Assembly (NCBI GenBank): GCA_951406725.2
Contig: OX597827.1
Coordinates: 47,740,001 to 47,804,000 of the forward strand
Direction of reading: 5' to 3'
Source of the DNA: Octopus vulgaris
Taxonomy: Eukaryota
DNA: 64,000 nucleotides
The position numbers and the translations under genes were made by a program. Below are positions 2,690 to 52,450 of this stretch, piece after piece. The notes under the pieces are model-generated. The model made no database searches and was not told the DNA's origin. It saw only the letters and a program-made list of their open reading frames with translations. Positions within the stretch are counted from its first letter, which is position 1. Each line of letters starts with the position of its first letter.

Positions 2690-2849
2690 GCATAAAAAAA
2701 AACGTTGAACACAATGAGAAACGAAAACATAAGAAAAACATAGAAATCGAACTTCTTTTCGAACAACGGAAAAACAGGGAACGTGATATGAAGATATGAA
2801 ACATAAAGAATATTTCCCTTCATCAGTTGTCCCTGTTTCATCTACTCCG

Positions 2850-2925
<76 letters not shown>

Positions 2926-4174: not shown

Positions 4175-4578
4175 TGGGGGAGAGAGAGATTTATATGTTG
4201 TTTGAAAGTATGCAGGATAATCATTCATTCCTGGATCGTAAGTTTGGTTGAGCAGAATTAGACTCGGCGCAAAGAGCTACTGCATATGTGATGGACTGAT
4301 GTGGGATTATAGTTGCAATAACTGCATCACCAAATCATTAGACTGAAACTGCTGGTGACAACAATGTTAGCACTACTGACAATTGAAAATCAAACACCGT
4401 CCCATAGGCTAGAAATGGTAGCAACATGGTACTAGAATTGTTACTTAGCGTAGATATAAAATCGAATACAATACACATTATAGCAAGAGCTGCACAGGTC
4501 TTGAACAAAGGTACGATCCTTGTGGTTGGAGTATAAGCCATCGTAAGGAAAGCTGGTAATGGCTGACACTTTTCGAAA

Positions 4579-42554: not shown

Positions 42555-42722
42555 ATGCACATATGGGTAGAGGACGTCACCAACAGTAAACAACATGAAT
42601 ATGAAAACAAGTGTTTTCAATACGCAAGCAACGAGAGAAACAAATGGAAAACAAGACAAGTAACATAAAGAACGACCATTCATCAGTTGTTGGCTGTCTA
42701 CCTACTCCTCATTTCGAGCATT
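42555..42722 (-). mobile_element. CTGATGAAGGG-family fragment between TA/CA tracts
   Basis: Minus strand: GCTCGAAATGAGG..CAACAACTGATGAATGG..GTTGGTGACGTCCT. Confidence 0.7.
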
Positions 42723-48314: not shown

Positions 48315-48352
48315 CTGTTACTCCGAGTTTCTCGTTGCCGTTCATCAGACAG
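48315..48352 (-). ncRNA. Minimal type I hammerhead
   Basis: CUGU-CUGAUGA-A CG GCAA CG A-GAAA-CUC G GAG-UA-ACAG. Confidence 0.75.
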
Positions 48353-48368
48353 TTTTTTCTAGCAAAAA

Positions 48369-48406
48369 CTGTCTGATGAACGGCAACGAGAAACTCAGAG
48401 TAACAG
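48369..48406 (+). ncRNA. Minimal type I hammerhead
   Basis: CUGU-CUGAUGA-A CG GCAA CG A-GAAA-CUC A GAG-UA-ACAG; inverted partner of 48315-48352 in TA-flanked element 48211-48444. Confidence 0.75.
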
Positions 48407-48460: not shown

Positions 48461-48720
48461 CTTGGCCCTGTTTTCGAAGCGCGGATCAGGTGAAACAAGG
48501 ACAACTGATGAAGGGGGATATTATTTATGTTGCATATCTCGTGTCTCTGTGTTTTTAGCTGTTCGAGAAAAAAGTTCGTTTTCTATGTTTTCATTTCTCA
48601 TTGTGTTCAACGTTTTTTTTTTTGATGTACTGTACCCATATATGCATTTATATTTACATATATATGTAGGTATGTACATATATGTATGTATATATGTGCA
48701 TATATTTATATATTATTTAT
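48461..48720 (+). mobile_element. CTGATGAAGGG-family fragment
   Basis: TTTTCGAAGCGCGG..GAAACAAGGACAACTGATGAAGGG..GATGTACTGTACCCATATATGCAT. Confidence 0.7.
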
Positions 48721-49444: not shown

Positions 49445-49885
49445 ATAAATAATATATATATGCATATATACATACGTATACGTACATACTTACAACTATA
49501 CCTATATACATACGCATATGTGGACACAGGTCGTCAGGAAACGTAAACAACATAAAAATTAAACGTAAACATGAGATACGAAATACGAATACATGAAATA
49601 TGAACCTGTTTTTGCAACAACGAAATAAACACATGGAAAACAAGACGAGTAACATAATGAACAACCCTTCATCAGTTGTCGGCTGATCAGATTTTCTGAA
49701 CCATATTTTGAGCAATTTAACGAAAAGAAAGATACACCTTCGATAAAAAAAAAAGTTGCCCCTGCAAAGCAAATTCAATAAAAATTTCGGTTTTGCGGAG
49801 GATCAATATTGGTAAGAAAAAAAGGACAGTGAAAACAAACAGGAAGGATTGCTAAGCTAAGCCTAAACTAGGCGAGGTGGCGAAC
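49445..49885 (-). mobile_element. CTGATGAAGGG-family fragment
   Basis: Minus strand: GCTCAAAA..CAGCCGACAACTGATGAAGGG..GACGACCTGTGTCC. Confidence 0.7.
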
Positions 49886-51420: not shown

Positions 51421-51451
<31 letters not shown>

Positions 51452-51456
<5 letters not shown>

Positions 51457-51651
51457 GATGTCGGTACGTACATATATGTTTGTATGTATGCATATATTTT
51501 ATTTATTACACTATTGTCTGACAGCGCTTCGCGTCGGGTTCGTTTGAATTTTCGATTTTGCGAATTCTCACTTCGTTCCATCTCTTTCCTCCCAGTTTGT
51601 TTTACAGTTTACTACAATGATGCGAAATTCTCTCCCTTTGCTTTGCCTTCC

Positions 51652-51692
<41 letters not shown>

Positions 51693-52417
51693 CTCTCTCT
51701 CTGCCTCAACCTTCTCTCTAGCCGCGTGTCTTCCTCTATCTGTCTCTCTCTCTCCCACTCCTCCTCACTTTCGTCACTGCTAATCCTTTCGCCTGTTGCA
51801 TTCAGACCCTAAGGTCATTTTTCCCAGCGCTCGCCAGTTACCTTCTCGTCCCCGCCAGAACAAAAGCCTTCGTTCGTCTTTTTCGTTTGTTCTCTTGTTT
51901 ATTTTGATTTCTCGTAATTTAATTTAATTCTCGTTTTGTATTTTCTTGTACATGTATCTTTAATTTTGTATTATTTTTTTCCTGTATTTTTTGTGCAGTT
52001 CTTTGTTACGTCCCTTTTTGTGTTACATTTTTTCTTGCTCGTTTTACCCCTCTACGAGGTTATTTTGTTTTAATTCTCTCGTAGGGAGGCCTAGCATGAC
52101 CAGAAGTGTTCTGTCTTGCCTTCGAAACACGCTATGTCTGCTAGCGACAGCTGATGAAGGGTTTTTTTTCCTTGTGCAGCATGTCCTGTACTTCGTTTTC
52201 TTTTGTACATAATTGTTTTTCCCGTTTTCGTTTCGTCTTGTTCCAAGTCTCTGTCCTTCTGTTGTAACAAAATGGCTTTTCCGTTTTCGTTTCTCTTGAT
52301 TTTTACGTTTTCTTGTGATGTCCTGTACGTATATATATTTATATATGCATGTATATATACATGTAGATGTCGGTACGTACATATATGTTTGTATGTATGC
52401 ATATATTTTATTTATTA

Positions 52418-52422
<5 letters not shown>
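51452..52422 (+). mobile_element. 909-bp non-coding unit of the CTGATGAAGGG family with 62-bp direct terminal repeat, inserted in (TA)n
   Basis: 51452-51513 equals 52361-52422; TA on both sides. Confidence 0.8.
52106..52161 (+). ncRNA. Candidate non-circularly permuted hammerhead ribozyme
   Basis: Strands GUGUU-CUGUC (52106-15), UUC-GAAA-CAC (52121-30) and GACAG-CUGAUGA-AGGG (52146-61) pair into helices III, I and II. Confidence 0.5.

Positions 52423-52450
<28 letters not shown>

What the first reader, a model, noticed from the sequence alone, without database searches (positions are those of the whole stretch)
52106..52161. Candidate scrambled (non-circularly permuted) hammerhead ribozyme
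Seen: strand A is GUG-UU-CUGUC, strand B is (CC)UUC-GAAA-CAC and strand C is GACAG-CUGAUGA-A-GGG. A pairs with B (helix III ACAC/GUGU), A with C (helix I CUGUC/GACAG) and C with B (helix II GGG/UUC after an extra A, as in other HHRs here). This gives a full core with a predicted cut after GUU at 52110. Types I-III have strand orders CBA, BAC or ACB; order ABC is none of them and requires a pseudoknot or a multimer. Diverged copies keep the layout, with helix I changing in concert: UUGGCC..UUC-GAAG..GGACAA-CUGAUGA-AGGG (48462-48515), UUUUCG..GCUC-AAAA..CGACAA-CUGAUGA-AGGG (49665-49726, minus) and GCUC-GAAA..CAACAA-CUGAUGA (42677-42719, minus). In none is CUGAUGA followed by GAAA. From memory, non-circular HHR permutations have been reported in a few eukaryotic repeats, so novelty must be checked; I know of no description for this family.
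Basis: partly seen in the sequence, partly recalled or inferred. Interest (0 to 1): 0.9.

Follow-up and report, generated by a model that had tools for sequence, protein, structure and literature searches.

The report
Split-core scrambled hammerhead in Naiad retrotransposons
This stretch is one copy of a jumping-gene repeat that carries a rearranged hammerhead RNA motif, predicted to cut itself, whose catalytic core is interrupted by two extra helices; the same layout sits at the ends of many Naiad retrotransposons, a group reported to lack standard hammerheads.

Summary
The S-G-C strand order belongs to the non-circular hammerhead class of Eckert et al. 2023, known only from environmental RNA/DNA. 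Here the strand after CUGAUGA pairs with the 5' end. Helix II is made by a separate upstream strand preceded by a hairpin, so two helices sit between A9 and G10.1, a link Eckert et al. assumed unbreakable. All six helices covary over 55 genomic copies. The host is a 0.9-kb non-coding Penelope-like repeat; 4,748 exact motif hits against 1 control hit. The same fold ends decayed Naiad elements of this genome and published Naiad consensus sequences. It occurs in 12 of 79 Naiad-type loci from metagenomes, with 0 in controls and G10.1-C11.1 in 12 of 12. Nematode Naiads carry the type-CSG form. Cleavage is untested, insertion ends show no spike at the cut, and no intact partner element was found. 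The scan earlier noted a CSG hammerhead in another genome (e1-7368731), not this form. I found no description in nine paper searches.

The parts
51424..52423 (+). Non-coding Penelope-like repeat, subfamily A: last ~91 bp of one unit (51424-51514) followed by one full ~0.91-kb unit (51515-52423), then (TA)n
   Evidence: 51424-51514 = 52331-52423, 94.6%; sister copies 93-96% identical, with 5' truncations, partial tandems and inverted partners; no PLE protein match in the window
52047..52051 (+). p' strand of closing helix P0 (pairs with the bases straight after CUGAUGA)
   Evidence: P0 82.7% paired, 3 of 6 pairs change on both sides
52052..52084 (+). Hairpin P5 (7-bp stem 52052-52058 with 52078-52084), directly between p' and the helix II strand
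   Evidence: 90.3% paired, 5 of 7 pairs change on both sides; also formed in the single-strand folds of 5 of the 6 full-length copies folded
52085..52089 (+). Strand 'a' = positions 10.1-10.5 of helix II (starts with G10.1); one G-U in this copy
   Evidence: 94.9% paired, 3 of 5 change on both sides; compensatory variant in L044 and L124 while the strand after CUGAUGA stays the same
52091..52100 (+). [quoted passage not shown]
   Evidence: 81-96% of the first 6 pairs formed per subfamily, best of two registers; same connectivity in CSG-1
52105..52115 (+). Block S: helix III strand (52106-52109; 52105 mismatched in this copy), H17 = U52110 (predicted cut 3' of it), helix I strand 52111-52115
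   Evidence: H17 = C 24, U 18, A 13, G 0 of 55
52119..52131 (+). Block G: helix II strand 52119-52123, GAAA 52124-52127, helix III strand 52127-52131
   Evidence: CGAAA present in 71 of 79 subfamily-A copies not selected on the core
52136..52144 (+). 3' strand of bridging helix P4
52146..52161 (+). Helix I strand 52146-52150, CUGAUGA 52151-52157, p strand 52158-52161 of closing helix P0
   Evidence: CUGAUGA present in 73 of 79 subfamily-A copies not selected on the core
48462..48515 (+). 5'-truncated subfamily-D copy (starts at the helix I strand, GAAG instead of GAAA); incomplete
49665..49803 (-). Decayed subfamily-E copy (G12 changed to A, small insertions)
42677..42720 (-). 5'-truncated subfamily-F copy (blocks G and C only)
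2815..2855 (-). 5'-truncated subfamily-D copy (block C only)

Best explanation
This is a copy of a non-coding Penelope-like repeat carrying a rearranged hammerhead RNA, predicted to cut itself after U52110, in which helix II is likely formed by an upstream strand so that two helices interrupt the core between A9 and G10.1; the motif is likely inherited from Naiad retrotransposons. Shown: the strand order p'-P5-a-b-S-G-l-C-p, covariation of six helices, and the same layout 3' of Naiad reading frames. Inferred folding: a long stem (P4 plus helix III) forms first; its loop pairs back with the 5' strand a (helix II) and forward with the strand before CUGAUGA (helix I); the 3' tail then closes P0 on the 5' end. 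This is the same ring of four helices as in the validated SGC and CSG ribozymes, opened at a third place. Inferred from hammerhead chemistry: G12 and G8 act as base and acid, giving a 2',3'-cyclic phosphate at position 17, as a monomer. Inferred role: processing of long tandem transcripts of the element, as proposed for other Penelope-like hammerheads.
L136 has N-terminal GIY-YIG, CxC and RT remains followed by the motif on the same strand; four further RT hits lie within 3.5 kb upstream of an exact motif hit on the same strand; same layout, read by eye, at the 3' ends of Naiad_Obim, _Ovul, _Esco, _Amil, _Aacu and _Anas; the four-helix ring cleaves in vitro in SGC and CSG forms; an unpaired base at the 5' end of stem II is known in PLE and some canonical hammerheads, so this link tolerates additions.
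Against: No cleavage data for any split-core RNA. 5' ends of 88 subfamily-A copies show no spike at the cut (1 exactly at 1.1, 1 at -2). Single-strand folding gives weak z-scores (-2.3 to +0.5) and competing folds. Only 16 of the 55 aligned copies pass the strict descriptor. 66 of 79 Naiad-type loci have no hit (44 of them with at least 300 nt of flank). No subfamily A-F copy was found next to a Naiad ORF, and all scored Naiad ORFs here are decayed, so Naiad descent of this very subfamily rests on shared architecture. The 55 copies fall in about six related subfamilies, so cells are not independent events.
Confidence: 0.75

Rival explanations
1. Plain type-SGC hammerhead: helix II is made by the GGG after CUGAUGA, and the upstream strand and 5' helices are an off-switch that holds the ribozyme inactive (a two-state switch in these subfamilies).
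For: That helix is 97.7% paired in 55 copies, with one pair changing C-G to G-U; validated HRIMA-1 RNAs also have one extra base after CUGAUGA (oligos); 3 of 55 copies score only as SGC.
Against: Two of four pairs are G-U; it is disfavoured in 55 of 55 copies; L044 and L124 change a and II' together while p is unchanged; in 12 of 12 metagenome examples this helix has 0-1 pairs; in the Naiad_Ovul-type copies it is irregular (2-3 of 4 positions, mostly 1 Watson-Crick pair).
Confidence: 0.09
2. The fold is real but does not cut on its own: it is a hammerhead-derived structure kept for binding the element's protein, or it cleaves only with that protein or as a multimer.
For: No insertion ends pile up at the cut. 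The Anolis PLE hammerhead showed no cleavage without protein, was not needed for insertion in vitro, and no RNA-seq reads began or ended at the cut (Frangieh 2024). Minimal PLE hammerheads cleave poorly. A four-way junction at A9 could disturb the A9-G12 stack.
Against: Core letters that matter for chemistry are kept: H17 is never G in 55 copies though it varies among C, U and A; G10.1-C11.1 in 12 of 12. All helices are long enough for a monomer, unlike the dimer-dependent minimal forms.
Confidence: 0.14
3. Chance arrangement of short motifs in an AT-rich, repeat-rich genome, amplified with a repeat.
For: CUGAUGA alone is only twice as frequent as expected in the window (18 against 9.0); Rfam finds nothing.
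Against: Compensatory changes in six helices; 12 unrelated-sequence examples at the matching place of Naiad elements with 0 in four control sets; 0 split hits in 20 shuffled windows.
Confidence: 0.02

Closest known systems
Type-SGC hammerhead ribozymes (HRIMA-1 and variants; Eckert et al. 2023, PMC10085705)
   Same: [quoted passage not shown]
   Different: In SGC the stem II strand and the fourth-helix strand follow CUGANGA. Here they lie 5' of block S, the bases after CUGANGA close a helix with the 5' end, and a hairpin precedes G10.1. SGC RNAs were found only in metatranscriptomes; these are in an animal genome.
Type-CSG hammerhead ribozymes (CSG-1, CSG-2; same paper; two soil-metagenome sequences)
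   Same: Same circular order of strands and same four helices; nematode Naiad consensus sequences and locus L289 have exactly this form.
   Different: CSG keeps block C whole and opens between helix III and the fourth helix; the present form opens between A9 and G10.1.
Naiad Penelope-like elements (Craig et al. 2021, PMC8557442)
   Same: 5' truncation, partial tandems, inverted partners, (TA)n targets; same ribozyme layout at the 3' end of Naiad consensus sequences and of ORF-bearing copies in this genome.
   Different: Craig et al. report no canonical hammerhead in Naiads and only flag 'HHR_core' and 'HHR_half_core'. Subfamilies A-F are 0.8-0.9 kb, non-coding, and no linked ORF was found.
[quoted passage not shown] 2026 preprint 10.64898/2026.07.22.740005)
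   Same: Ribozyme in the terminal repeat of a PLE or of a short non-autonomous tandem unit.
   Different: Those are type I (C-G-S), often need dimers; this one has the opposite (non-circular) order and stable helix III.

Membership tests
Hammerhead ribozyme | CUGANGA, GAAA and NUH core with A15.1-U16.1 | tested here: met
   GAAA 53 of 55, U16.1 53 of 55, H17 never G; 73 and 71 of 79 copies not selected on the core. For part of the 55 copies the core letters were in the search pattern.
Hammerhead ribozyme | Helices I, II, III with covariation, G10.1-C11.1 at the base of II | tested here: met
Hammerhead ribozyme | Site-specific self-cleavage 3' of H17 | not testable with these tools
   no assay; genomic footprint absent; only contigs were available for laying
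Hammerhead types I-III (Rfam models) | Circular block order CGS, GSC or SCG | tested here: not met
   order is S-G-C; no Rfam hit
Type-SGC hammerhead (Eckert 2023) | Block order S, G, C | tested here: met
Type-SGC hammerhead (Eckert 2023) | [quoted passage not shown] | tested here: met
   P4
Type-SGC hammerhead (Eckert 2023) | Block C unbroken: stem II strand follows CUGANGA within 1-2 nt | tested here: not met
   0-1 pairs in 12 of 12 metagenome examples; possible but disfavoured in subfamilies A-F
Penelope-like element | 5'-truncated copies, partial tandems forming pLTRs, inverted partners, microsatellite targets | tested here: met
Naiad clade | ORF with N-terminal GIY-YIG, CxC, DKA and C-terminal RT in the same element | tested here: not met
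   window subfamily A and B-F are non-coding. Met for the sister motif in L136 and for the proteins behind L241-L319.
Naiad clade | Descent of subfamilies A-F from a Naiad | tested here: inconclusive
   same ribozyme architecture, but no blastn link outside it and no A-F motif behind 20 divergent Naiad RT hits
Non-LTR retrozyme | Short non-coding tandem unit with a type I hammerhead | tested here: not met
   short tandem unit yes, type I no
Non-LTR retrozyme | Accumulates as circular RNA | not testable with these tools
   no raw RNA reads offered

The most novel reading that the evidence does not exclude
A seventh natural hammerhead topology: an active monomeric ribozyme whose chain is opened inside the catalytic core, with a closing helix and a hairpin inserted between A9 and G10.1. 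It is the overlooked ribozyme of many Naiad retrotransposons from cnidarians, arthropods and molluscs, present in thousands of copies here, while nematode Naiads use the CSG permutation of the same ring.
Probability: 0.65. Interest if true: 0.88.

Novelty: new variant of a known kind. Interest (0 to 1): 0.8.

Why it matters
It breaks the stated assumption behind the six-permutation scheme for hammerheads (block C cannot be interrupted) and moves non-circular hammerheads from a few environmental RNAs into animal genomes at high copy number. It offers an answer to why Naiad elements seemed to do without the ribozyme that other Penelope-like elements keep: descriptors could not see it. It gives many diverse natural sequences for testing how much the A9-G10.1 link tolerates, a position that could carry a switch or aptamer in engineered ribozymes. 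One retroelement clade holding two permutations of one ring is a direct case for studying how RNA permutations arise.

Tried and rejected
Rfam at gathering score: nothing in the window or in 20 Naiad-type loci. Canonical C-G-S reading: no GAAA follows; a weak local hairpin after CUGAUGA exists but leads to no core. Cleavage footprint in insertion ends: none among 88 copies; two junctions fall at the cut (L203, L182), about what chance gives. Autonomous partner for subfamilies A-F: none within 1.5 kb upstream in 100 loci, none behind 21 GIY-YIG loci or 20 divergent RT loci; scored Naiad RT hits are all decayed (150 of 734 and 131 of 2399 candidates scored). Word-index protein search found no relatives; the full HMMER search did. 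Sequencing runs: no RNA holder listed on record; four contig sets guessed to be RNA cover the family but cannot show ends, strand or level, so nothing is concluded on expression. MAFFT could not align the 13 metagenome ribozymes, so pairs were counted from core anchors. The careful tree did not finish; the quick tree is used only to show spread. Single-strand folding cannot draw the pseudoknots. Weinberg et al. 2015, cited for hammerheads with additional helices, is not held; two reviews and Perreault 2011 gave no passage on a helix inserted after A9.

Full report
1. What is in the window. Rfam has no match. The stretch belongs to a repeat: 46 matches at up to 93-96% identity from 40 of 1985 candidates scored. 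The pattern TCGAAA-N18-40-CTGATGAAGGG occurs 4,748 times in the 2.8-Gb genome, the backwards control once. The genome looks like an octopus-type cephalopod; this is my inference from its size and from exact matches to the Naiad_Ovul motif. The window copy is a 0.91-kb non-coding unit (51515-52423) preceded by the last 91 bp of another unit and followed by (TA)n. Sister copies are 5'-truncated, form partial tandems and have inverted partners, the anatomy Craig et al. give for Penelope-like elements.

2. What is known. Eckert et al. 2023 (PMC10085705; I read parts 2-6 of 8 of the text, part 1 of the supplement and search passages) described non-circular hammerheads. [quoted passage not shown] None was found in the genome of a known organism except one bacterial GCS candidate. 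Their scheme assumes that CUGANGA and its neighbouring stem strands cannot be separated by more than 1-2 nt. So the scrambled order itself is known.

3. The real fold is larger. Motif copies fall into six related subfamilies, A-F. Comparing them shows three more helices and a different helix II partner. From 5' to 3': p' (52047-51), hairpin P5 (52052-84), a (52085-89), b (52091-100), block S, block G, l (52136-44), helix I strand with CUGAUGA, p (52158-61). Strand a pairs with the helix II strand of block G, b with l, and p with p', with no spare bases between p', P5 and a. I aligned 55 natural copies with MAFFT. They were chosen from 121 extracted copies: 8 of the subfamily-A copies were kept, the 12 Naiad_Ovul-type copies were left out because MAFFT misplaced them, and copies truncated or deleted in the 5' part were dropped. 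The 34-pair model is 87.0% paired, 23 pairs change on both sides, none of 500 shuffles reaches this, and slid controls give 41-47%. Per helix: P0 82.7%, P5 90.3%, II 94.9%, III 91.6%, I 96.6%. P4 scores 68.7% because its register shifts by one in some subfamilies; with the better of two registers it is 81-96%. The copies are related, so these are counts, not probabilities, and for part of the set the core letters were in the search pattern. Among 79 subfamily-A copies picked by a 22-mer outside the core, 73 keep CUGAUGA and 71 keep CGAAA; 41 of the 64 that reach p' pass the strict descriptor.

4. Which helix II? Rough helix sums favour a/II' plus P0 in 55 of 55 copies. Two subfamily-D copies change a and II' together while p stays. 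The deciding evidence comes from outside this genome (section 6).

5. Link to Naiad elements. Craig et al. 2021 (PMC8557442; passages, supplement part 1 and search passages of the consensus file) state that Naiads lack canonical hammerheads and flag 10 'HHR_core' and 8 'HHR_half_core' cases. Read by eye, the 3' ends of Naiad_Obim, _Ovul, _Esco, _Amil, _Aacu, _Anas and four consensus sequences I could place only by file part (parts 9, 12, 12, 19) have the full p'-P5-a-b-S-G-l-C-p layout. In the Acropora and the four unnamed ones p cannot pair with II'. Naiad-1, -2 and -3_Nbra and three more in the nematode block have type CSG, with the same connectivity as validated CSG-1. I saw 60 of 62 CTGATGA places and 19 each of 23, 43 and 25 places for the other three core words; hits broken by line ends are missed. 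I saw no such motif in the bivalve part. In this genome the Naiad_Ovul-type motif has 411 exact hits, control 0. L136 shows a decayed N-terminal GIY-YIG, CxC and RT frame followed by the motif on the same strand (Pfam GIY-YIG on the L133 homologue is below cut-off). Four more RT hits lie within 3.5 kb upstream of an exact hit, and 4 of 20 divergent RT loci show it clearly.

6. Independent test. A HMMER search with a Naiad RT fragment gave full-length proteins with N-terminal GIY-YIG, CxC and DK(A). An alignment of six fetched 79 loci from metagenome contigs. A descriptor for all block orders, run on up to 1500 nt after each ORF match, found 12 split-core and 1 CSG motif; 44 loci with at least 300 nt of flank and 22 shorter ones had none; the reverse strand and three shuffles gave none. 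L318 is a 13th by eye. In the 12, strand a makes 4-6 pairs and starts with G10.1-C11.1 in all 12, which the descriptor did not ask for; the bases after CUGANGA make 0-1 pairs. Sites are GUU 3, GUA 3, GUC 3, AUA 2, CUC 1. Four pairs of hits are related, so about eight lineages are independent; none resembles this genome's copies by blastn. On a quick tree of 78 RT pieces the split form occurs in both main branches, mixed with loci that lack it. The same descriptor calls the window copy 'split' and finds no split motif in 20 shuffled windows.

7. How it likely works. SGC, CSG and this form share one ring: helix I and helix II are tied at their far ends by short links and the fourth helix, which runs on into helix III. 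SGC opens the ring before block S, CSG after block G, and this form between A9 and G10.1, where P0 and P5 fill the gap and make a four-way junction. An extra base at this link is known in PLE and some canonical hammerheads (Cervera and de la Pena 2014, passages, citing De la Pena and Flores 2001, which I did not see). Chemistry, monomer action and the role in cutting tandem transcripts are inferred from other hammerheads, not shown. P0 can form only after the last core base is made, which could time the cut; that is speculation.

8. Against. No cleavage data. 5' ends of 88 subfamily-A copies do not pile up at the cut; Frangieh et al. 2024 (PMC11167929, passages) likewise found uncut RNA to be the main template and cleavage only with protein, so this neither supports nor refutes activity. 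The window copy has three weakening changes (52105, 52086, 52162). Most Naiad-type loci have no hit. Subfamily A is young, yet no intact Naiad frame was among the scored hits; the only intact PLE frame seen is a 784-aa C-terminal-endonuclease element with a type I hammerhead. What moved subfamily A is unexplained.

9. Novelty. Nine answered paper searches gave no description of permuted hammerheads in Naiads or of a helix inserted after A9. The 2026 preprint on animal retrozymes (abstract, outline, passages) treats type I and III only; its supplement is closed. PMC13725137 (passages, references) mentions variants with additional helices, citing Weinberg 2015 (not held), Eckert 2023 and Forgia 2023 (passages, nothing relevant). 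Subscription journals are mostly not covered. Verdict: new variant of a known kind; interest 0.8.

Noticed in passing
window 14032 (-), 14552 (+), 15031 (+): Three copies of an ordinary type I hammerhead, two in tandem and one inverted, as in a Penelope-like insertion of another family.
   Followed up: partly
window 48317-48404: Inverted pair of short type I hammerhead-like ends with extra bases on both sides of a 2-bp stem II.
   Followed up: no
L149:1132-3483, L150:1061-3412 and their 3' flanks: Intact 784-aa Penelope-like ORF (RT, C-terminal GIY-YIG) whose 3' type I hammerhead has a U3/A8 core instead of C3/G8.
   Followed up: partly
Eckert 2023 CSG-1 and CSG-2; L289:2770-2860: The two soil-metagenome CSG ribozymes have the same layout as nematode Naiad 3' ends and L289, so they may be Naiad ends.
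   Followed up: no
L255, about 4350-4430: Naiad 3' flank with hairpin, strand a, blocks S and G and the bridging helix but no CUGANGA after them; truncated or a core-less relic.
   Followed up: no
Craig 2021 consensus file, parts 8 and 17-19: Some ctenophore, spider and ostracod Naiad ends carry CUGANGA with other neighbours (a 2-bp helix I in one, different strand orders in others); more permutations may exist.
   Followed up: no
L203 and L182: Internal junctions in two subfamily-A copies fall at or next to the predicted cut; 2 of 88, not above chance.
   Followed up: partly
window 52163-52190 and matching flank in subfamilies B-F: Downstream bases can pair back on the helix I strand and on p, enclosing CUGAUGA; a possible competing fold kept across subfamilies, not counted formally.
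   Followed up: no
L047 and L137: Long near-perfect inverted repeats built from a ribozyme-like core (fold-back copies).
   Followed up: no
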